A stretch of DNA of 64,000 nt from a virus. Of the stretch, positions 23,953 through 49,884 are shown one piece after another (the first letter of the stretch is position 1; each line of letters starts with the position of its first letter). The DNA is taken from IMG/VR virus record IMGVR_UViG_3300005805_000050, positions 32,001 to 96,000 of that record; one strand, 5' to 3'. A program made the position numbers and the translations under genes. The notes beneath the pieces were generated by a model, which saw nothing but the letters and a program-made list of their open reading frames with translations, did no database searches and had not been told where the DNA came from.

Positions 23953-24753
23953 ATGTTTAGATACTATCCTACATTCACAATAAAGCAGAACCTAATCACT
24001 CGACCCGGGGAATTTCTTGTTAACGGCGCCCCGTACAACGGATTGTATTACGAGACATTCGACGGACAGTATTACAGCGGAGCAAATCCCGCCGAAGGAC
24101 CTAACGAAAAACTCACTCGTCTCAATACGGGAGATGGATCACAAACATCCGCAGAGTACCTACAAATGCAAGATAGTACTAGCATGCAAAATGCGACTAG
24201 TTACACGCAAGGAGATAAACTATTGTACGAAGGATCTCCTTACACTGGCGCGTATTACGAAGACGCCAACGGCAAATACCGCACTATGGATGGAAAAGAA
24301 CTAGAACTAGCGAATCCAGCGGAAAAGGCCCAAAAAGAAGCAAACAAATTTAATACTCTCGCGAACATAGAAAAAAGAAATTCGCTTGGATTCACCGGCC
24401 AACCCACTTCTTATCAACCTAGACCCCTCGATGAAGATTTTTTGAAGGGATTTTTTACCCGATACTTCGTAAAAAAAATCAACGAACGAGGATACGTAGT
24501 AGAGATATCGGAGGAAGAATACGCTGCCATAAACAATGGCACTGTAAAATACGACGTGAGCTACTATCAAACAACAAAACTAGTCTGGAAACTTACGGGA
24601 CCGTTGGAAACCCAGAGACTTTCGCAGTACGATATCAGAGCAGGCATAATAGACACGAACAAGAGAAACGTTGAGAACTTGAACAAAACGTTTATTGGTA
24701 TTAAAACATTTATAGGAGACGAGTACGCTAAATTTGCTGTACCAAATAAATAG
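23953..24753 (+). CDS. Hypothetical virion protein with an internal G-x-P-Y-x-G-x-YY repeat
   Basis: GAPYNGLYYETFDGQY and GSPYTGAYYEDANGKY; last gene of the tail operon. Confidence 0.55.
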   Translation: MFRYYPTFTIKQNLITRPGEFLVNGAPYNGLYYETFDGQYYSGANPAEGPNEKLTRLNTGDGSQTSAEYLQMQDSTSMQNATSYTQGDKLLYEGSPYTGAYYEDANGKYRTMDGKELELANPAEKAQKEANKFNTLANIEKRNSLGFTGQPTSYQPRPLDEDFLKGFFTRYFVKKINERGYVVEISEEEYAAINNGTVKYDVSYYQTTKLVWKLTGPLETQRLSQYDIRAGIIDTNKRNVENLNKTFIGIKTFIGDEYAKFAVPNK

Positions 24754-24802: not shown

Positions 24803-26095
24803 ATGCATTTCTTAATAGAAAACAGTACACAGTTTGAAAAACTAACACCACAAAACGAGTGTTTTGTACAGGTGGTGCCCCTGAGTTACGCTTATCACCC
24901 CAAGTTGACATCTATCTCTGTGATTTACTACAGAAGCATAGACAAGGGTTATATATTCAGCATAAAACACTCTGAGACAGAATCATTAGAGCTTCAATCG
25001 GTGTTGGACTTCATATCTAAGCACGACAAAGTTTTTGTACTTGACAAAAAATTCCATTCTTACTTCTTGAATCCTAAAAATCTGGTTGATGTGTTCTTCT
25101 GCTTGAAAGAAAATTCAAACCGAGTAGATTTCAAAACTTCAATACAGTTGGAGTACGAACTGAAATACTTCGACAGATCCGATACAAACGCGCTGATTCC
25201 CGTTGGCAAGCACTACGAACACCTCGAGAATGTTTTCGAATACTATAAAGGTAACTTTTTTAAGTGTGAAAATTGGGAGGATTTGAGTAACGTCATAGAC
25301 TCTTACTTCTACGTAGAGAATAATTCCATAGGCGTCAATGAATCGTTCTTCGATGTGTACACAGTGAACAATAAGAAACACTCTTACGACGGTAAGGGCT
25401 TGTATACGCACTACAACATGTACAACCAAACTGGTAGACCCACTAACACTTTCAACGGGGTGAACTTTGTGGCAATACCTAAGGACGAAGAACACAGGAG
25501 TTGCATAATTCCCCAAAACGAATACTTTGTTGAATACGATTTTGACGGTTATCATGTTAGACTCATAGCAAATAAGTTGGGCGTGAAACTGCCCGAAACT
25601 TCCATTCACGAGTACTTGGGAAAACAGTACTTCAATAAAGAGAAATTGACCGAAGAGGACTACAAAGCTTCAAAAACAATAACCTTCAGACAACTTTATG
25701 GAGGCGTCATGGAAGAATACAGTCACATAGATCTATTCAAAAAGATGGGACAATTCATAAAAGATCTGTGGGAATCTTATGACAACAACAAATTCATCAA
25801 GCTTCCCACGGGATCTACTCTGTACTACAATAAAGAGATGACACCGTTAAAGGTCTTCAATTACTACGTACAGAACATGGAGACCAAAAACAACTCTGAC
25901 CGGGTAAAACTAGTTAGAGAGATATTGAAGGGAAAGAAGACAAAACTCGTACTCATAACGTACGATGCGTTCCTGTTCGACTTCGATTGTGCAGATGGCA
26001 AGGACCTTCTACTCTCTATAAAATCTGCCTTAGAGACCGGTGGTTACCCTACTAAGCACAAATACGGAAAAAACTACTTTTTACAACAATCTTAA
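24803..26095 (+). CDS. Short divergent family A DNA polymerase-like protein (start placed at ATG 24803)
   Basis: TGRPTN..N.VAIP, motif A EYDFDGYHVR, motif B SKTITFRQLYG and motif C LITYDAFLFD. Confidence 0.8.
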   Translation: MHFLIENSTQFEKLTPQNECFVQVVPLSYAYHPKLTSISVIYYRSIDKGYIFSIKHSETESLELQSVLDFISKHDKVFVLDKKFHSYFLNPKNLVDVFFCLKENSNRVDFKTSIQLEYELKYFDRSDTNALIPVGKHYEHLENVFEYYKGNFFKCENWEDLSNVIDSYFYVENNSIGVNESFFDVYTVNNKKHSYDGKGLYTHYNMYNQTGRPTNTFNGVNFVAIPKDEEHRSCIIPQNEYFVEYDFDGYHVRLIANKLGVKLPETSIHEYLGKQYFNKEKLTEEDYKASKTITFRQLYGGVMEEYSHIDLFKKMGQFIKDLWESYDNNKFIKLPTGSTLYYNKEMTPLKVFNYYVQNMETKNNSDRVKLVREILKGKKTKLVLITYDAFLFDFDCADGKDLLLSIKSALETGGYPTKHKYGKNYFLQQS

Positions 26096-26096
26096 T

Positions 26097-26105
26097 ATAT
26101 TTATA
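26097..26105 (+). promoter_or_regulatory. ATATTTATA motif
   Basis: Exact motif just 4 nt before ATG 26110, implying a very short leader if it is a promoter. Confidence 0.45.
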
Positions 26106-26109
26106 GGTA

Positions 26110-26541
26110 ATGGTTGCGGAATTTGAAAACATAGAATTGACACAAGAGATGTTAAAAAATAAACTATTCTGTACCTTTACCACAGAAGAAAAGTTAGAAG
26201 AGCTTATAGAGAGCATAGGTAAAGAGTACAAGGTTCTCTACAACAAGATATTCGTCCTGTCCTCGCCGGACTCTAAAGAGTTACTGTGCACATACAATAT
26301 AGATACAGAGAATTCACAGCCCAGGATAATGAAGAATACGATCCTGGTTCATCGAAAGAAGGACACTAATACATTGTACACAATAAATTCTCTCAACGCC
26401 CTGATCATGGAGTTGAACGGAGGAGTGCTTGACACTAAGTACGCCATAAATTGGGAGGATTACAAGAATTCCATTCTGCTGGTACAGGACTCGAAATTTA
26501 GAAAGCTCAATACGCAAGTAAAGAAAATTGTGAACTTGTAA
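26110..26541 (+). CDS. Hypothetical protein
   Basis: 143 aa clean ORF between the short PolA and SSB genes. Confidence 0.75.
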   Translation: MVAEFENIELTQEMLKNKLFCTFTTEEKLEELIESIGKEYKVLYNKIFVLSSPDSKELLCTYNIDTENSQPRIMKNTILVHRKKDTNTLYTINSLNALIMELNGGVLDTKYAINWEDYKNSILLVQDSKFRKLNTQVKKIVNL

Positions 26542-26602: not shown

Positions 26603-27385
26603 ATGGACATTTCCCAGTTACGGAGCAGACTTGCATCCCTGCAGAATCCGAAAGGTTCTCAAAAAGGCGAGTTAAAGAAAACCCTATGGTCACCTACCGT
26701 AGGTAAACATTCGGTGCGCTTGGTTCCTTCCGCGTACAACAAATCGAATCCATTCAAGGAACTCTATTTCCACTACGAATTCGGCAAAACGATGATCGCT
26801 CTCACCAACTTCGGTGAAAAAGATCCCATCGTTGAGTTCGCTCAAGGCTTGCGTAAGTCCTCCAACAAAGAGGATTGGCAATTGGCTAAGAAGCTCGAGC
26901 CGAAGATGAGAATTTTCGCTCCTGTAATTGTACGTGGCGAAGAAGAGAAAGGCGTTCTTTTATGGGGATTCGGTAAGCAAATCTACATGGATCTGCTGTC
27001 GATCGCGGAAGACGAAGACGTAGGCGACTACACCGATCCTCTGCAAGGTCGCGATATTACCATCGAGACTCTTGACAAATCGAGCACCGGTCTGACTTAC
27101 GATAAGTCTACCGTTCGCATTCGCACAAAAGTCACTCCGCTTTCTGAGAGCGGTGACCAGATCAAAAAGTGGTTGACGGAACAACCCGATCCCACTACGC
27201 AGTTCAAACGCTACTCTTACGATGAGATGAAAGCTGCACTGCTCGCTTACTTGAATCCTGAGAACGAGGCCGAGGTGGCAGCAGCCACTCCTGCACCGCC
27301 CGAGGAATCAAAGCCGCAGAAGTTCAGTCTGAGCACAACGCCCGCTGAAACTAACAAAAAAATAGACGATCTGTTTGACTTCTAA
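26603..27385 (+). CDS. Single-stranded DNA-binding protein (T4 gp32-like)
   Basis: NPFKELYFHY, DPIVEFA, LLWGFGKQIY, DYTDPLQGRDITIE and acidic tail IDDLFDF. Confidence 0.85.
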   Translation: MDISQLRSRLASLQNPKGSQKGELKKTLWSPTVGKHSVRLVPSAYNKSNPFKELYFHYEFGKTMIALTNFGEKDPIVEFAQGLRKSSNKEDWQLAKKLEPKMRIFAPVIVRGEEEKGVLLWGFGKQIYMDLLSIAEDEDVGDYTDPLQGRDITIETLDKSSTGLTYDKSTVRIRTKVTPLSESGDQIKKWLTEQPDPTTQFKRYSYDEMKAALLAYLNPENEAEVAAATPAPPEESKPQKFSLSTTPAETNKKIDDLFDF

Positions 27386-27417: not shown

Positions 27418-28503
27418 ATGGCAAAAAAAGCAAGCTTAAATGACGCTGTGTCCGCAGCAGTAAAGGACAAATCGCAATTCAACCTTGATAACTTCAAGAA
27501 GGGTAAGAATCTAAACACAGTATCCGTAAAATTCAAGGATCAACGGTGGATTACCTTATCGAAAGCTTTTCAAGACACATTGCAAATCCCTGGAATTCCC
27601 ATGGGACATATCACGCTCCTACGCGGTCACTCTGATACTGGCAAAACCACTGCTATGTTGGAAGCCGCAATTCAGTGCCAAAAGGCCGGAGTTCTACCCA
27701 TTCTGATAATCACAGAGATGAAGTGGTCGTGGGAACACGCAAAGGAAATGGGACTTCAATTTGAAGAAGTGCCTGATACCGATACAGGCGAGATCATAGA
27801 CTACAAAGGGTTCTTCCTCTACATCGATAGGGAAAAACTCAATTGCATAGAAGACGTTAGCGCTTTCATCATGGATATTCTTGACGAACAGAAGCGCGGT
27901 AATCTTCCTTACGATCTGTGTTTCTTCTGGGATTCGGTTGGATCCATACCATGTAGATTGTCCATAGAATCGAATAAGAACAACAACGAGTGGAACGCAG
28001 GCGCAATGTCGCAGCAGTTCGGTAACTTCGTAAACCAGAAGATTGTGATGTCAAGGAAAGAAAGCTCTCCTTACACTAATACGTTTGTGGCTGTGAACAA
28101 AGTTTGGGTAGCAAAACCCGAAACTATCATGAGTCAGCCTAAGATGAAGAACAAAGGTGGAGACACAATGTTCTTTGACTCCTCGCTAGTCATCACGTTC
28201 GGAAATGTTACAAACTCAGGCACAAGCAAACTCAAGGCCACAAAGGGTGGAAAAGAGATTGAGTTCGCTAAGCGGACTAAAGTAAGTTGCGATAAGAATC
28301 ACGTGACTGGAGTTACTGGAGTTGGAAGAATAATCGTCACCGTACACGGCTTCATTCCAGAGGAAAAGAAAGCATTGGAAGATTACAAGAAGGCATACTC
28401 ACACCAGTGGTTAAAAGTGTTAGGATCTAAAGACTTTGAAGTTATCGAAGAAGAGGATACTTCACAAGCAGCAGACATATTTGACAATTCAGAAAACGAC
28501 TAA
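27418..28503 (+). CDS. RecA/UvsX-like recombinase
   Basis: Walker A GHSDTGKT, Walker B FFWDSVGS and MKNKGG..MFFDSSL. Confidence 0.85.
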   Translation: MAKKASLNDAVSAAVKDKSQFNLDNFKKGKNLNTVSVKFKDQRWITLSKAFQDTLQIPGIPMGHITLLRGHSDTGKTTAMLEAAIQCQKAGVLPILIITEMKWSWEHAKEMGLQFEEVPDTDTGEIIDYKGFFLYIDREKLNCIEDVSAFIMDILDEQKRGNLPYDLCFFWDSVGSIPCRLSIESNKNNNEWNAGAMSQQFGNFVNQKIVMSRKESSPYTNTFVAVNKVWVAKPETIMSQPKMKNKGGDTMFFDSSLVITFGNVTNSGTSKLKATKGGKEIEFAKRTKVSCDKNHVTGVTGVGRIIVTVHGFIPEEKKALEDYKKAYSHQWLKVLGSKDFEVIEEEDTSQAADIFDNSEND

Positions 28504-29528
28504 TGACTCCCGAACAGAAGAAGATATTCGACTCCCTGTCGTCTAAAGAAGTTCCTGAAGAAAAGTTGTCTTTACACAGCCGGGTTCTCATAGTGGATTC
28601 TTTGAATACATTCATGAGGGCCTTCGCTGTGATAAGGCACGTGAATCACAATCTAACTCCCATCGGGGGTTTGACAGGATTTCTTAGATCTATGGCTTAC
28701 GCTATAAATCTAGTAAGACCCACAAGAGTGATAGCAGTGTTTGACGGTCAAGGATCGTCGACGAATAAGAGGTACATATACCCAGAGTACAAAGCAAATA
28801 GACATCTCCGCCGCATAACAAACTGGGACCATTTCGAAAGTCAAGAGGCCGAATCAGAGGCGATAATCAATCAAGTGGTAAGACTCGTAGAGTATCTAAA
28901 GTGTTTACCTGTGGACATGATTACTATAGATAAGATCGAAGCAGATGATGTTATAGGATACATGGCTCAGAGAGTTGGACAAGATACAACGATTATGTCA
29001 AGTGATAGGGATTACCTACAGCTAGTAAGCGACAGAGTCACTGTGTTTTCTCCTACGAAAAAGAAATTTTACACACCTAAGATGGTGCTGGAAGAATATG
29101 GAGTCACGCCAGAAAATTTCCTAATACAGAAGATGCTGCTAGGAGATTCAGGCGACAACGTACCAGGAGTTCAGGGACTTGGACCAAAAACACTAATAAA
29201 AGAATTCCCAGAATTGGGAGGTAAAGATCGAGTTTCGTTAAACGAGATCCTTACAAAGTGTAAAGAGGGAAAGAAAAAGGTGCACGGATCCATTAGAAAC
29301 TTTGAACGTCAACTCGAAGTAAACAAGCTTCTAATGGACCTAGAAAATCCTAACATACCCGAAGAAGGAATAAAAGAGATAGAATCTTGCATACTCGAAC
29401 CGTATAAGCAGTTTAATTCGCTGGAATTTGTCAGATTGTATAACGAAGATGATTTAGGAAACAGCATTCCAAACGTACAGAACTGGCTCTTCAATCATTT
29501 TCACACACTATCAAAATATAAAGAATGA
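28503..29528 (+). CDS. 5'-3' exonuclease / flap endonuclease (T4 RNase H-like)
   Basis: LIVDSLN, AVFDG, YPEYKANR, EADDVIG, SSDRDYLQL and GDSGDNVPGV.GLGPKT. Confidence 0.92.
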   Translation: MTPEQKKIFDSLSSKEVPEEKLSLHSRVLIVDSLNTFMRAFAVIRHVNHNLTPIGGLTGFLRSMAYAINLVRPTRVIAVFDGQGSSTNKRYIYPEYKANRHLRRITNWDHFESQEAESEAIINQVVRLVEYLKCLPVDMITIDKIEADDVIGYMAQRVGQDTTIMSSDRDYLQLVSDRVTVFSPTKKKFYTPKMVLEEYGVTPENFLIQKMLLGDSGDNVPGVQGLGPKTLIKEFPELGGKDRVSLNEILTKCKEGKKKVHGSIRNFERQLEVNKLLMDLENPNIPEEGIKEIESCILEPYKQFNSLEFVRLYNEDDLGNSIPNVQNWLFNHFHTLSKYKE

Positions 29529-33955: not shown

Positions 33956-34978
33956 ATGAAATTAGAAAAGTACGAGAAACTAAAACAGCGGTTAGAGGTA
34001 CTCAAACTCGAAAAGAATTTCTTTCCACTCAATACGACCCTGTACTGGTTTTCGTTTTTGGGTAACATCTTTTTGATTTACTTCGGTTACTTCTTCATAA
34101 GAACAATCACCGATACCCTTCCCGAATTATTTCCCTACCAAGACCAATTTTTTATGGTCTTCATCGCTCTATTCCTTACTGGATACGAGTTGACTAAGCG
34201 ATTTGTTATAGACCAAACTGCCAACTCTTTAGTGGGTCCCAAAAGATCTATCACTTTCGGAGTCGTATTCGGCATAATAGTGTCATTACTCATGATATTG
34301 GGATCTTTCTATATGTCCATAAAGGGCGCGCATAGATTGGTGGACAATAAGGACGTGATCACACAACAGATAGATTCCACAAGTAATAAGAAGATAGAAG
34401 AGATCACACAGTATTACGATAAAGAAATATCTTATTATAGATCCCAACCCGCCAGAACAAGAGCTGATAGAGAATACAGGGATTCCATAGTTGCAAACTT
34501 ACAAATACAAAAGGATCAGAAGATAGAGGCTGAAGAAACTAAAACGGTGACAAGGGCTGAAACGTCATTGGAAGAGAACGCAGAGAACGATTTCGCTTTC
34601 ATGGTCATTACGTTCTTCTTAGAGATCATAGTGATACTTGGCGTTGCATTCAATGCGTACTACACAGTGTCCACCTTCGAAGAGACGGGCAAATTGCTAC
34701 AAACGCCTAAGTACAAACAGTACATGAACAACCTACAACTGTTGAAGTTGTATTACGCCAACGGTAAGAAAGAATCGAGTGAGATAGCCATATCATACAG
34801 CAAGCTCATGTCCCTAGCAAAAAATTCAAAGCTAGGCATAACTAACTCAGAAATTAAAGACTTCGTGTCCATGTGTATCGAACTTGGGGTGACTAAAGAA
34901 ACCCAAAACAAGAGAAAGCAACTAGTCATGTCTTACGACGACGCGAAAAAAGCTTTTCAAAAGGACGACATATTTTAG
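33956..34978 (+). CDS. Multi-pass membrane protein with a coiled-coil region
   Basis: Three to four hydrophobic segments flank a charged helical region; preceded by ATATTTAA at 33936-33943. Confidence 0.65.
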   Translation: MKLEKYEKLKQRLEVLKLEKNFFPLNTTLYWFSFLGNIFLIYFGYFFIRTITDTLPELFPYQDQFFMVFIALFLTGYELTKRFVIDQTANSLVGPKRSITFGVVFGIIVSLLMILGSFYMSIKGAHRLVDNKDVITQQIDSTSNKKIEEITQYYDKEISYYRSQPARTRADREYRDSIVANLQIQKDQKIEAEETKTVTRAETSLEENAENDFAFMVITFFLEIIVILGVAFNAYYTVSTFEETGKLLQTPKYKQYMNNLQLLKLYYANGKKESSEIAISYSKLMSLAKNSKLGITNSEIKDFVSMCIELGVTKETQNKRKQLVMSYDDAKKAFQKDDIF

Positions 34979-34990
34979 TAGATTAAGGTT

Positions 34991-37297
34991 ATGATAAATA
35001 AGAGTTATGTAATGGTGGATACCATGGAGAAGTTTCGCGCCATGGCCGACCACGTAAAGAAGCACGACATAGTCGCCTTCGACACAGAAACAACCTCCCT
35101 AAACCCAAGAAAAGGCAAGATCATAGGATTCTCTGTAAGCGCAGAGATCGGATACGGATATTACGTACCGACCATGATATTCAAAGACGGGGAACTGAAC
35201 GATGCATACATAGACGGACAGAGTGCACACGAGTTGGCAAAGCGATTCATCACAGCATTGACGACTAAGAAGCTTGTAATGCACAATGCGTCATTCGACT
35301 GTAGATTCGTAAAGGCGTTTTACGATATAGATCTCACGCCAAGCTTGCACGCCGATACCATACTATTGGTACACACGCTCATGGAAGAGGGCGCAGGATA
35401 CATGTCGAAATCGCCCTTCGCTCTCAAAGAAATCGCCAAGAGCATTCAAACGGAATTGGGTCTTGACGTAGAGAAGGAAGCTAACGAAGAGCAGATCGAA
35501 CTCAAGAATTCCATAAAGAACAACGGAGGTTCGATAACTAAGGAGAACTACGAGATCTGGAAAGCGGACATCGATATCCTCTCAAAGTACGCTGCCGCCG
35601 ATACTGACTTGACTCTACGTGTGTACAACTACTTCGAACCACAGCTAGACGTTCAAGGTCTTAGAAAGTTCTATTACGAGGACGAAGTCATGCCGCTGTA
35701 CAAAGAAGTGACCATTCCCATGGAAAGCAGAGGCGTTAGACTCGACATGCCACTGATCACAGACGCCAAGCGTAAGATAAGCGAAGATCTAAAGAAGTAC
35801 CACGAACTGGTCATAAAGGAATTGCTTACGAATCCAGACGTTCGTACGTGGGTTATTTACAAAGCCACCGAAGCTTATCCTCCCAACCACAAAGGCGCAT
35901 ACGCTCAGGAGTTGGCAGAGATGCACAACTTGGACATACCAAAATCAAAGAAGAACGGCAAGTACAGCATAACAACAGCTAACGTATCTCAACTTCCCGA
36001 TAGTCCCATAAAGGAATTTCTAGTGACAGGTAACGCTGATTCTTTACCCGAAGACATTCGCTTGAAAGTCAGCATGAAACTTTGGAAGGAGGACAACGAT
36101 GGCTCTTACTTCAACATACAGTCTAAGGATCACATGGGCGAAATAGCCTTTGCGGTGCTGGGAATACAGCCTTTGTCAGAAACCAAGACAGGTAAACCCC
36201 AATTCGACGAGGACATGATACAACTCATAGCCGAGGATTACGAGTGGGCTAAACACCTCAGAGTGTACAACAAGCTGATGAAGATTAGTTCCACGTACAT
36301 CGATAGGTTCTTAGAGAGCAACGAAGACGGCAAGTACTATTTCTCCTACAAGCAACACGGTACTGTGTCGGGTCGTTACGGATCGGACGCTCAACAGTTG
36401 CCTAGACCTAAAGAGGAAGGCGACGACGATCAAGTCATTGTGGATTACAACAACTTGGTAAGAGCGTTCTTCATACCTTATGATGGAAACACGTTCATCG
36501 ATAACGACTACGAATCTCTTGAACCCAAGACGTTCTCTCACGTATCAGGCGACGAAGGTCTTATGGACATCTTTAGAAACGGTTGGGACTTTTATTCCAC
36601 CATCGCAATCAAAACCGAGAAACTGAACCAGTATTCTCCTGACAAAAAGGCTCCGAATTACTTGAGAAAGTTGGCTCCGCAATTGCGTAACAAGGCGAAA
36701 GCGTATTCCCTCGGAATTCCTTATGGCATGGGGCCTTACGCTCTTGGTAAGAACATCGGAGTGAAGACTAAGGAAGCAGAAGAGTTGGTAAATGGATACC
36801 TCGATGGATTTCCAAACCTGAAGAAGTGGATGCAGGATTCTAAAGCTTTCGCCAAGGAAAACGGCTACATCAAAACCCAAGTAGGTCGCATTCGACACTT
36901 GCCCAAAGTGCAACTGTTGTACAGCAAGTACGGAGACAAACTACTTGACTTCAAGTTCAAGATGCAGTTGGAAAAGCAGAAAGGTAAAGACCACGTGACA
37001 AACATGGTGAGAGACTACAAAAATGGTCTCAACAACAGTCTAAACGTGCAGATCCAGGGACTCGCAGCTTCAATAGTAAACCGCGCAGCTATCGCAATCA
37101 ACCGAAGATACAAAGAAGCCGGTATAAAAGGTCAGGTCGTAGCACAGATTCACGACCAGCTGATCGTAGAGGTAGAAGAAGCAAGATCTAAAGAGGCAGC
37201 AGAAATCATGCAGGATTGTATGGAAAACACAACCAAGCTGCGCATACCTTTGGTAGCAATTCCCTCTATTGCGCACAACTGGCGCGACGGTCACTGA
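34991..37297 (+). CDS. polA: DNA polymerase, family A (3'-5' exonuclease + polymerase)
   Basis: AFDTETT, MHNASFD, YAAAD, motif A DNDYESLEPK, motif B RNKAKAYSLGIPYG and motif C QIHDQL. Confidence 0.95.
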   Translation: MINKSYVMVDTMEKFRAMADHVKKHDIVAFDTETTSLNPRKGKIIGFSVSAEIGYGYYVPTMIFKDGELNDAYIDGQSAHELAKRFITALTTKKLVMHNASFDCRFVKAFYDIDLTPSLHADTILLVHTLMEEGAGYMSKSPFALKEIAKSIQTELGLDVEKEANEEQIELKNSIKNNGGSITKENYEIWKADIDILSKYAAADTDLTLRVYNYFEPQLDVQGLRKFYYEDEVMPLYKEVTIPMESRGVRLDMPLITDAKRKISEDLKKYHELVIKELLTNPDVRTWVIYKATEAYPPNHKGAYAQELAEMHNLDIPKSKKNGKYSITTANVSQLPDSPIKEFLVTGNADSLPEDIRLKVSMKLWKEDNDGSYFNIQSKDHMGEIAFAVLGIQPLSETKTGKPQFDEDMIQLIAEDYEWAKHLRVYNKLMKISSTYIDRFLESNEDGKYYFSYKQHGTVSGRYGSDAQQLPRPKEEGDDDQVIVDYNNLVRAFFIPYDGNTFIDNDYESLEPKTFSHVSGDEGLMDIFRNGWDFYSTIAIKTEKLNQYSPDKKAPNYLRKLAPQLRNKAKAYSLGIPYGMGPYALGKNIGVKTKEAEELVNGYLDGFPNLKKWMQDSKAFAKENGYIKTQVGRIRHLPKVQLLYSKYGDKLLDFKFKMQLEKQKGKDHVTNMVRDYKNGLNNSLNVQIQGLAASIVNRAAIAINRRYKEAGIKGQVVAQIHDQLIVEVEEARSKEAAEIMQDCMENTTKLRIPLVAIPSIAHNWRDGH

Positions 37298-49221: not shown

Positions 49222-49445
49222 ATAAAGACACATTTCAAACTTGGTTACTTGGATTTGTTACTGCATGCGGAGAAAATCCGCCAAATAAAGAGCAGTGGAA
49301 TACTCTATTAGAGGCCGTAAAATCACTTCATAAGCAAGACGCAAAGGTGTATCCCCCAAAGTGGACATACACCGCTGATTTCAACATCAATAAATCTCAA
49401 GACGGTAAAGATTTTGAAGTAAAAAAAGATTTGCTGCATGACTAA
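49218..49445 (+). CDS. Hypothetical protein (start placed at the ATGA overlap)
   Basis: Translational coupling with both neighbours. Confidence 0.55.
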   Translation: MNKDTFQTWLLGFVTACGENPPNKEQWNTLLEAVKSLHKQDAKVYPPKWTYTADFNINKSQDGKDFEVKKDLLHD

Positions 49446-49884
49446 AGACAATCTCATAGACTGCCCCCTGTGTTCAGAACCTGGAGCGTGTTATGCCTCT
49501 ATTATAAACGAAGCTAACAAGATGTCCTATTTTTGTTTTGGATGTGGTTACCACAGTAATGATCTTATGATCAGCGGAGAATTTGATACAGACGATTACG
49601 AAAAGCAACTACCAGAATTGTACAAAGACATTAAGCGTGTTGATAACGATAATCGTGTGTGGTATCCTACGGCTATAAATCTGCAGGAAAAGGGCACAGT
49701 CTTTGCAAATGGAAAAAATCCAGACGAGTGGCAATGGGCTGCTATAAAAAATATACCCCTTTCAGAGGAAGACAAAGAAAAATTGATCTTTAAGGGAAAG
49801 ACTCATAAGTCTGACTCTAAGTCTCTAAAGAATTTTGGAAAGGATTTCCTATCAGCACTAGAATACATTGAAGTAGAGATTTGA
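49438..49884 (+). CDS. Zinc-finger hypothetical protein
   Basis: CPLC...CFGC. Confidence 0.7.
   Translation: MTKDNLIDCPLCSEPGACYASIINEANKMSYFCFGCGYHSNDLMISGEFDTDDYEKQLPELYKDIKRVDNDNRVWYPTAINLQEKGTVFANGKNPDEWQWAAIKNIPLSEEDKEKLIFKGKTHKSDSKSLKNFGKDFLSALEYIEVEI

What the first reader, a model, noticed from the sequence alone, without database searches (positions are those of the whole stretch)
24803..26095. Second, miniature family A polymerase with an altered steric gate
The window has a full PolA (34991) and also this 430-aa paralog. It keeps both catalytic Asp (motif A DFDGYHVR, motif C YDA) and the O-helix K, F and Y. By manual alignment to E. coli Pol I, the steric-gate Glu710 is His, Arg754 is Tyr, His881 is Tyr and Glu883 is Ala. 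The thumb looks much reduced and the N-terminal exonuclease-like region lacks a clear DxE. Glu710 is known to exclude rNTPs. Inference: a repurposed nucleotidyltransferase (primer synthesis, modified-nucleotide handling or repair) heading the SSB-recombinase-helicase block. No primase is visible in this window.
Basis: partly seen in the sequence, partly recalled or inferred. Interest (0 to 1): 0.7.

Follow-up and report, generated by a model that had tools for sequence, protein, structure and literature searches.

The report
Thumbless second phage polymerase (divPolA1)
This gene of an uncultured freshwater T4-like phage encodes a shrunken DNA polymerase I relative with no proofreading, almost no thumb and a strictly conserved but unusual active site; computer analysis described the type in 2024 as divPolA1, nobody has assayed it, and this copy is a new member rather than a new kind.

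Summary
ORF 24803-26095 (430 aa) matches no Pfam, PHROG or PDB sequence on its own. A 75-member family profile hits the Klenow fragment (E 3.6e-9), and an AlphaFold model (pLDDT 95) superposes on it (Z 22.5).
- both catalytic Asp and the O-helix Lys: 206/206
- His for steric-gate Glu710: 204/206
- Tyr for His881: 204/206
- Ser/Ala for Glu883: 204/206
- Tyr for Arg754: 173/206

About 80 thumb residues are missing, and the exonuclease-like domain has no conserved carboxylates at Exo I.

The family is already published as divPolA1 (Yutin et al. 2024, Virol J 21:200), with no biochemistry. This scan reached the same verdict on other genomes.

Confirmed here independently:
- A very conserved 143-aa gene always follows it and has the same phyletic pattern.
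- A conserved promoter-like motif lies between the two genes.
- Three relatives, two deposited as complete genomes, carry an ordinary DnaG-type primase, so "no primase" is an effect of the fragment.

Most likely it is an active, distributive, non-proofreading accessory DNA polymerase of the SSB-UvsX-FEN-DnaB module. Priming or relaxed sugar choice remain untested minority readings.

The parts
24803..26095 (+). divPolA1-type miniature family A polymerase, 430 aa
   Evidence: 35% identity (E 5e-74) to Flavobacterium phage immuto gp1, the type member of divPolA1
24803..25282 (+). N-terminal 3'-5' exonuclease-like (RNase D/DEDD fold) domain, about aa 1-160, without conserved Exo I carboxylates
   Evidence: VIA matches of residues 1-176 to exonuclease ExnV1, RNase D, WRN exo, Z 9-11; column conservation
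25319..25411 (+). Thumb stub, about aa 173-203, standing in for roughly 110 thumb residues of Klenow
   Evidence: HMMER alignment jumps from Klenow residue about 555 to about 637 with no query residues between; secondary structure of the model
25526..25561 (+). Motif A, FVEYDFDGYHVR: catalytic D246; H251 at the steric-gate position (Klenow E710)
25652..25702 (+). O helix / motif B: Y287 (for R754), K291, F295, Y299
25943..25984 (+). Motif C hairpin, LVLITYDAFLFD: Y387 (for H881), catalytic D388, A389 (for E883), near-invariant D393
26097..26105 (+). ATATTTATA promoter-like motif between the polymerase stop and the partner's ATG
   Evidence: 8 sites in the window, all on the + strand and intergenic, against 1.5 expected; kept at this position in 65 of 76 related loci
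26110..26541 (+). Conserved 143-aa partner gene ('sm143'), alpha/beta, no known family
   Evidence: directly downstream in all 76 related loci that have downstream DNA, 49-80% identity; found in the same 6 phage records as the polymerase; 35 invariant columns; AF2 pLDDT 90
26603..27385 (+). gp32-like ssDNA-binding protein
   Evidence: PF08804
27418..28503 (+). UvsX/RecA-like recombinase
   Evidence: PF00154; annotation of the immuto orthologue
28503..29528 (+). Stand-alone 5'-3' exonuclease / flap endonuclease
   Evidence: PF02739 + PF01367
29525..30901 (+). DnaB/gp41-like replicative helicase
   Evidence: PF03796
34991..37297 (+). 'Regular' PolA, 768 aa, with intact Exo I (FDTET), steric-gate Glu, O-helix Arg/Lys, Leu at the F762 position

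Best explanation
The ORF is a member of the published divPolA1 family. It has a Klenow-fold polymerase with a dead 3'-5' exonuclease domain, a thumb cut down to a stub, and a complete two-aspartate active site. I read it as a catalytically active, template- and primer-dependent, distributive and non-proofreading accessory DNA polymerase. It would belong to the conserved replication-recombination module (partner sm143, gp32-like SSB, UvsX, flap endonuclease, DnaB helicase) and act beside the phage's regular proofreading PolA. Its likely job is short DNA synthesis from 3' ends made by the primase or by UvsX strand invasion: primer extension with hand-off, D-loop extension, or gap filling together with the stand-alone FEN, in effect a split Pol I. 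It probably works as a complex with the 143-aa partner. Shown here: the fold, the motif assignments, conservation, synteny, co-occurrence, and the presence of ordinary primases in relatives. Inferred: catalytic activity, low processivity, the complex with the partner, and the specific role.
For: - Family and fold; published description (PMC11348598).
- Active site under selection: D246, D388, K291, R212 and Q357 are invariant or nearly so in 206 sequences, although overall identity is only 35-50%. All primer-terminus and template contacts of Klenow are kept (R668, N678, Q849, Y766, F762, H734).
- No proofreading: no conserved carboxylates at Exo I.
- Low processivity: about 80 thumb residues are missing.
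- Module membership: the order up266-divPolA1-sm143-SSB-UvsX-FEN-DnaB-RNR recurs in 76 IMG/VR loci and in immuto. Without a detected UvsX match, it also recurs in Mel-JY01 and a 484-kb phage.
- A regular PolA with intact exonuclease and a steric-gate Glu is present. Yutin et al. report that the regular DNAP in this clade may be of family A, B or C while divPolA1 stays constant.
- DnaG-type primases occur in three relatives, two of them deposited as complete genomes.
- The DNA polymerase fold is favoured over single-subunit RNA polymerases: Z 22.5 over 417 residues against Z 11.8-13.4 over about 250.
Against: - There is no biochemistry for any member.
- Four residues that are near-universal in family A DNA polymerases are replaced family-wide: E710H, R754Y, H881Y and E883S/A. 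E360 and D393 are new invariant acidic residues. Ordinary dNTP chemistry therefore cannot be assumed.
- R754 normally holds the triphosphate, and I identified no substitute.
- The complex with sm143 is inferred only from adjacency and co-occurrence. A promoter-like motif separates the two genes.
- T4, T7 and T5 manage Okazaki maturation without a second polymerase, so the need for one is not obvious.
Confidence: 0.45

Rival explanations
1. Translesion or repair polymerase. An open, exonuclease-free, thumb-poor active site lets the phage copy UV- or otherwise damaged templates in sunlit water, working with UvsX and SSB much as Pol V works with RecA.
For: Loss of proofreading and of the thumb, as in low-fidelity polymerases. 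Adjacency to UvsX and SSB. Aquatic distribution, including Baltic Sea and Microcystis phages. The family A repair enzymes Pol theta and Pol nu are among the structural matches.
Against: Nothing here bears on whether it bypasses damaged bases. No damage-related genes were noticed in the module. Strict linkage to DnaB, FEN and RNR looks more like core replication than repair.
Confidence: 0.15
2. Primase-polymerase of the CcPol-MP type. The polymerase together with its small partner starts DNA chains de novo on single-stranded DNA for the neighbouring helicase.
For: A precedent exists: an A-family polymerase with truncated N-terminal domains gains primase activity only with a small adjacent partner, next to a helicase (Bebel et al. 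2020, PMC7581432; Rice 2023, PMC10061031). Here there is an obligate, very conserved small partner and a DnaB helicase four genes downstream. The thumb, which grips the primer-template duplex, is lost.
Against: Three relatives, two deposited as complete genomes, have a DnaG/gp61-type primase, so no priming gap needs filling. The partner model showed no OB fold: it is alpha/beta with only weak matches, Z 5.4 or less. CcPol lacks the exonuclease fold that divPolA1 keeps. No robust fusion or other physical link was found.
Confidence: 0.12
3. Polymerase with altered sugar or substrate selectivity. With His in place of the steric-gate Glu, and HDE changed to YDS/A, it would incorporate rNTPs or modified nucleotides, for example to make RNA or mixed primers or to handle hydroxymethyl-dCTP.
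For: His251 is fixed in 204/206 sequences and Glu never occurs. Glu710 is the side chain that excludes rNTPs in Klenow (Astatke et al. 1998, cited in PMC10201439). From my own knowledge, a Ser after the motif C Asp is also seen in T7-type RNA polymerases (HDS).
Against: His, and the Tyr/Phe at position 250, are bulky and may exclude a 2'-OH as well as Glu does. From my own knowledge, single-subunit RNA polymerases have Gly at this position. F295 and Y299 are of the DNA-polymerase type. Structural similarity to RNA polymerases is much lower than to DNA polymerases. The regular PolA would have to incorporate any modified dNTP anyway.
Confidence: 0.1
4. Main replicase. divPolA1 plus sm143, with sm143 acting as a thumb or processivity factor in trans, replicates the genome, and the 'regular' DNAP has another role.
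For: divPolA1 sits in the constant replication module, whereas the regular DNAP lies among chaperonin and nucleotide-metabolism genes and is swapped between families A, B and C in this clade (here GroEL, Hsp20, dUTPase and dCMP deaminase lie next to PolA).
Against: A 120-190-kb genome copied without proofreading is implausible. The regular PolA has intact exonuclease and polymerase motifs. divPolA1 is the fastest-evolving protein of the module, at 35-50% identity against 56-75% for UvsX.
Confidence: 0.08
5. Catalytically dead scaffold of the replisome.
For: R754, H881 and E883 are lost. The protein itself scores below Pfam detection.
Against: Both metal-binding Asp, the O-helix Lys, F762, Y766, R668 and Q849 are invariant or nearly so in 206 sequences while the rest of the protein drifts to 35% identity.
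Confidence: 0.02

Closest known systems
divPolA1 (Yutin, Tolstoy, Mutz, Wolf, Krupovic, Koonin 2024, Virol J 21:200, PMC11348598; type member Flavobacterium phage vB_FspM_immuto gp1)
   Same: Homologous over the full length (35% identity, E 5e-74). Truncated thumb, inactivated exonuclease domain and retained palm catalytic residues. Encoded in addition to a regular DNAP. Same downstream replication genes.
   Different: Nothing essential; this is another member. Added here beyond the text of that paper: conservation counts for E710H, R754Y, H881Y and E883S/A; a far larger family (1076 clusters at 50% identity, at least 582 IMG/VR contigs, against 14 phages); the obligate 143-aa neighbour; the motif between the two genes; and primases in relatives.
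[quoted passage not shown]
   Same: Same two-domain fold (Z 22.5, 417 of 430 residues aligned). Motifs 2, A, B, 6 and C align. Taq and Bst also have inactive exonuclease domains.
   Different: 170 residues shorter. The thumb tip is absent. Steric-gate Glu is His, Arg754 is Tyr, HDE is YDS/A. There is no fused 5' nuclease; a stand-alone FEN lies three genes downstream.
CcPol-MP / PolA-SSB primases of Bacillota mobile elements (Bebel et al. 2020 eLife; Rice 2023 Front Mol Biosci)
   Same: An A-family polymerase with reduced accessory domains, a small adjacent partner protein, and a helicase in the same gene block.
   Different: CcPol lacks the exonuclease fold entirely. Its partner is an OB-fold SSB, whereas the model of sm143 showed no OB fold. 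The hosts are SCC-type elements, not large lytic phages. The phages here also have a DnaG-type primase.
T7-like single-subunit RNA polymerases (T7 RNAP, mitochondrial RNAP, N4 vRNAP)
   Same: Related palm and fingers. A small residue after the motif C Asp.
   Different: Much weaker structural match (Z 8-13 over about 250 residues). No promoter-recognition N-terminal domain or specificity loop. The steric-gate position is His, not Gly.

Membership tests
Family A DNA polymerase superfamily | Klenow-type palm and fingers fold with exo-like N-terminal domain | tested here: met
   AF2 pLDDT 95. Foldseek E about 1e-17. VIA Z 22.5, rmsd 3.1, 417 residues aligned to 1d9d.
Family A DNA polymerase superfamily | Motif A and motif C catalytic aspartates, and O-helix Lys, Phe/Tyr and Tyr | tested here: met
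   D246, D388 and K291 206/206; F295 201/206; Y299 203/206. Alignment to Klenow.
Family A DNA polymerase superfamily | Score above the Pfam PF00476 gathering threshold | tested here: not met
   P0001 itself has no Pfam hit at E up to 1. 39 of 75 relatives hit PF00476 at E below 0.01. The immuto orthologue reaches 43.9 bits summed, against a cut-off of 34.3. Membership therefore rests on the profile and the fold, not on Pfam.
Family A DNA polymerase superfamily | Steric-gate Glu (E710), Arg754, and His881-Asp-Glu883 of canonical DNA-dependent DNA polymerases | tested here: not met
   His 204/206, Tyr 173/206, and Tyr-Asp-Ser/Ala 204/206.
divPolA1 (Yutin et al. 2024) | Homology to immuto gp1 and its relatives | tested here: met
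   tblastn 35% identity over 99% of the query, E 5e-74.
divPolA1 (Yutin et al. 2024) | Truncated thumb | tested here: met
   About 80 Klenow residues (556-636) are unmatched. 430 aa against 605 aa, with full-length superposition.
divPolA1 (Yutin et al. 2024) | Exonuclease domain present but inactivated | tested here: met
   Residues 1-176 match DEDD exonuclease folds at Z 9-11. No conserved acidic residue at the Exo I strand. I did not map Exo II and Exo III residue by residue.
divPolA1 (Yutin et al. 2024) | Encoded in addition to a regular DNAP | tested here: met
   768-aa PolA at 34991-37297. Immuto also has a 778-aa PolA.
divPolA1 (Yutin et al. 2024) | Conserved downstream replication genes | tested here: met
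PolA-SSB primases (CcPol-MP) | Adjacent small partner with an OB fold that binds ssDNA | tested here: inconclusive
   A partner is present. Its AF2 model (pLDDT 90) is alpha/beta, with a ferredoxin/RRM-like N-terminal half. No OB-fold protein is among the matches, and the best is Z 5.4. A missing structural match does not exclude the fold.
PolA-SSB primases (CcPol-MP) | De novo, primer-independent DNA synthesis | not testable with these tools
   Needs a biochemical assay.
PolA-SSB primases (CcPol-MP) | Takes the place of a canonical primase next to the element's helicase | tested here: not met
   DnaG-type primases are present in immuto, Mel-JY01 and LR756508.
T7-like single-subunit RNA polymerases | Closer structural similarity to RNAPs than to DNAPs, with promoter-binding N-terminal domain and specificity loop | tested here: not met
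   Z 11.8-13.4 over residues 81-418 only, against Z 22.5 for Klenow. At 430 aa there is no room for these additions.

The most novel reading that the evidence does not exclude
divPolA1 and its obligate 143-aa partner form a two-subunit enzyme whose rewired active site (His steric gate, no Arg754, YDS/A motif C, new invariant Glu360 and Asp393) gives it a chemistry that no characterised family A DNA polymerase has. This could be de novo chain initiation, as in CcPol-MP, or efficient ribonucleotide or mixed-sugar synthesis. It would then be a second, PolA-based priming or primer-building system in large aquatic phages.
Probability: 0.15. Interest if true: 0.75.

Novelty: new member of a known kind. 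Interest (0 to 1): 0.35.

Why it matters
divPolA1 is abundant in aquatic viromes: more than 1000 clusters at 50% identity. It is fixed at the head of the replication module of a whole clade of large phages whose main polymerase has been swapped between families A, B and C. Yet nobody knows what it does. A natural family A polymerase with a conserved non-Glu steric gate, no thumb and an obligate small partner is a compact enzyme of 430 aa plus 143 aa that should be easy to express. It could show how a second polymerase divides labour in phage replisomes, and it may have useful substrate tolerance. For this window alone the finding is ordinary: it is one more copy of a described family.

Tried and rejected
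- Direct searches with the protein alone against Pfam, PHROGs, NCBIfam and PDB found nothing. Only profiles and the fold showed the relationship.
- BLASTP between the two PolAs of the window found nothing, so I rejected a recent duplication.
- The primase hypothesis based on absence was rejected. No primase is in the 122-kb record. A Toprim_4 hit at G000 100.1 kb turned out to be a glycosyltransferase. A weak CHC2 zinc-ribbon hit in ORF 49438-49884 has no Toprim part. Relatives do have DnaG-type primases.
- The partner's fold matched nothing convincing. Foldseek against PDB gave nothing below E 0.1. VIA gave Z 5.4 or less. BFVD returned only an uncharacterised orthologue. The protein atlas gave no usable hit. 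Weak matches to the polyomavirus large-T origin-binding domain recurred in three searches; they are a lead, not a result.
- T4 RegA, UvsY and gp59 were considered as identities for the partner, from my own knowledge of those proteins. None appeared among the structural matches, and UvsY and gp59 are all-helical, unlike the model.
- The search for polymerase-partner fusions gave three singleton proteins from short metagenome contigs that look like chimeras or deletions. I do not count them as evidence.
- No model coordinates were available to scripts, so I could not measure distances around His251, Glu360 and Asp393.
- No complex prediction was possible with the tools.

Full report
**The ORF**

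ORF 24803-26095 (+) is open and encodes 430 residues from an ATG. The window is bases 32001-96000 of a 122-kb uncultured viral record that CheckV estimates at 75% complete.

On its own the protein matches nothing in Pfam, PHROGs, NCBIfam or PDB sequences. BLASTP against the window's full PolA finds nothing.

**The protein family**

An exhaustive phmmer search found 1076 representative clusters (50% identity) at E 1e-3 or better, and 464 at 1e-30 or better. Nearly all are 415-460 aa.

- A 75-member alignment (A1) used as a profile hits the Klenow fragment at E 3.6e-9, and Bst and Taq large fragments more weakly.
- 39 of the 75 members individually hit PF00476.
- The Flavobacterium phage immuto orthologue reaches 43.9 summed bits against that model.
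- AlphaFold2 on A1 gives pLDDT 95 and pTM 0.92.
- Foldseek returns only family A DNA polymerases at the top, E about 1e-17.
- VIA-align gives Z 22.5, rmsd 3.1 and 417 aligned residues against Klenow 1d9d across residues 328-928. T7 and mitochondrial RNA polymerases reach only Z 11.8-13.4 over residues 81-418.

**Residue assignments**

I verified the HMMER alignment to Klenow by counting chain positions.

| This protein | Klenow | Status |
|---|---|---|
| R212 | R668 | kept |
| N221 | N678 | kept |
| D246 | D705 | kept |
| H251 | E710 (steric gate) | changed |
| H269 | H734 | kept |
| Y287 | R754 | changed |
| K291 | K758 | kept |
| F295 | F762 | kept |
| Y299 | Y766 | kept |
| Q357 | Q849 | kept |
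| Y387 | H881 | changed |
| D388 | D882 | kept |
| A389 | E883 | changed |

Conservation across 206 full-length sequences, made up of 138 cluster representatives and 68 IMG/VR loci:

- R212, D246, K291, E360 and D388: 206/206
- His251: 204/206, with 2 Gln and no Glu
- Tyr387: 204/206
- Ser/Ala389: 204/206
- Tyr287: 173/206, with Arg in only 7
- Asp393: 201/206

So the catalytic core is under strong purifying selection while overall identity falls to 35%.

Klenow residues about 556-636, the thumb tip, have no counterpart.

Residues 1-176 match DEDD-type exonuclease folds at Z 9-11. No acidic residue is conserved on the strand where Exo I DxE would lie.

By contrast, the 768-aa PolA at 34991-37297 has FDTET, the steric-gate Glu (DNDYESLEPK), the O-helix Arg and Lys, Leu at the F762 position and HDQ in motif C.

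**Prior description**

The family is already in print. Yutin et al. 2024 (Virol J 21:200, PMC11348598) named it divPolA1.

- They found it in 14 phages around Flavobacterium phage immuto, always in addition to a regular DNAP of family A, B or C.
- They described a truncated thumb, an inactivated exonuclease domain, retained palm catalytic residues and conserved downstream replication genes.
- They concluded that it most likely retains DNA polymerase activity. There is no biochemistry.
- The only papers in the library that contain the name are that paper and its preprint.

The window's protein is 35% identical to immuto gp1 over its full length, E 5e-74, with the same gene order.

Earlier follow-ups of this scan reached the same verdict on other genomes. 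Some also noted the small partner and the primase elsewhere. I reached these points independently before reading those notes.

**Gene context**

In all 76 loci that have downstream DNA the order is: large structural protein, a 266-aa protein, divPolA1, a homologue of the 143-aa ORF 26110-26541, gp32-like SSB, UvsX, FEN, DnaB and, where the flank reaches that far, usually RNR.

Apart from UvsX, which was not matched there, the same order holds in Microcystis phage Mel-JY01 and in a 484-kb uncultured phage.

Identity to the window's proteins across these loci is 35-52% for divPolA1, 49-80% for the 143-aa protein and 52-75% for UvsX. The polymerase is therefore the fastest-evolving member of the module.

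**The 143-aa partner**

- In the 50,697-record phage collection, the polymerase and the 143-aa protein hit exactly the same six records.
- The small protein has 7747 clusters (90% identity) of relatives, no Pfam family, and 35 invariant columns that include HRKK..NTLYTIN.LN.
- Its AF2 model (pLDDT 90) is alpha/beta.
- It has no convincing structural relative: Foldseek against PDB gives nothing below E 0.1, VIA gives Z 5.4 or less, and BFVD returns only an uncharacterised orthologue.
- Weak matches to the polyomavirus large-T origin-binding domain recur across the three searches. This is a lead only. No OB-fold protein was among the matches.
- Three longer proteins containing it are singletons that look like chimeras.

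**Transcription signals**

The nine bases ATATTTATA lie between the polymerase stop and the partner's ATG, at 26097-26105.

- The motif occurs eight times in the window, always on the + strand and intergenic, against 1.5 expected.
- A close variant is kept at the same place in 65 of 76 related loci.
- Upstream of the polymerase gene there is instead a TATATT-type element and the common AAAGGTTATG start context.
- The polymerase may therefore be transcribed separately from the block that it appears to head.

**The primase argument**

No primase is detectable in the window or in the rest of the 122-kb record. However, immuto, Mel-JY01 and LR756508 each encode a 314-333-aa protein with DnaG zinc ribbon, DNAG_N and Toprim_2 matches, far from the divPolA1 locus. 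The absence here is best explained by the missing quarter of the genome. It gives no support to a priming role.

**Mechanism**

Shown:
- a complete two-metal polymerase site with the primer-terminus and template contacts of Klenow
- no proofreading site
- almost no thumb
- constant membership of the replication-recombination module
- a separate, intact regular PolA

Inferred: an active, distributive, non-proofreading accessory DNA polymerase that makes short stretches from 3' ends supplied by the primase or by UvsX strand invasion. It may also fill gaps with the stand-alone FEN, and it probably works in complex with the 143-aa protein (confidence about 0.45).

Rival readings:
- translesion or repair polymerase, 0.15
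- CcPol-MP-like primase-polymerase, 0.12; precedent in PMC7581432 and PMC10061031
- relaxed sugar or substrate selectivity through the His steric gate, 0.10
- main replicase with the partner acting as a thumb in trans, 0.08
- dead scaffold, 0.02

The family-wide loss of Glu710, Arg754, His881 and Glu883, together with the new invariant Glu360 and Asp393, is unexplained by any of these readings. It is the main reason to assay the enzyme.

**Verdict**

The object is a new member of a published but uncharacterised family.

Noticed in passing
window 8980, 11562, 12154, 26097, 30917, 37431, 38318, 46000 (+ strand): The nonamer ATATTTATA occurs 8 times, always on the + strand and in intergenic DNA upstream of genes, against 1.5 expected. 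It is probably a phage promoter class. One copy lies between divPolA1 and its partner gene and is conserved there in 65 of 76 related loci.
   Followed up: partly
window 26110-26541: A 143-aa orphan protein with 35 invariant columns (HRKK..NTLYTIN.LN..I..LN.G) and 7747 clusters of relatives, but no Pfam family and no convincing structural relative. Weak matches to the polyomavirus large-T origin-binding domain recur.
   Followed up: partly
window 23953-24753: A 266-aa orphan protein directly upstream of divPolA1 is also conserved at that position in most related loci, in Mel-JY01 and in the 484-kb phage LR756508. Its C-terminal half carries the conservation. No family is known.
   Followed up: no
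window 34991-37297: The regular PolA has Leu at the Klenow F762 position (KAYSLGIPYG) and HDQ instead of HDE in motif C, with an intact Exo I FDTET.
   Followed up: no
window 33956-34978: A 340-aa ORF between the ribonucleotide reductase genes and the regular PolA has no Pfam, PHROG or NCBIfam match, but it is 60% identical to a protein in a related contig, L025.
   Followed up: no
window 49438-49884: A 148-aa ORF has a weak CHC2 (DnaG-type) zinc-ribbon match (19-20 bits, below the cut-off) and no Toprim domain. It is followed by glycosyltransferase genes, so it is not a primase as it stands.
   Followed up: partly
proteins P0273 and P0274 (metagenome singletons): These ORFs join pieces of FEN, divPolA1 and the 143-aa partner in one frame, on contigs of 1.6 and 4.2 kb. 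They are probably assembly chimeras or deletions, but would be worth checking as natural fusions.
   Followed up: no
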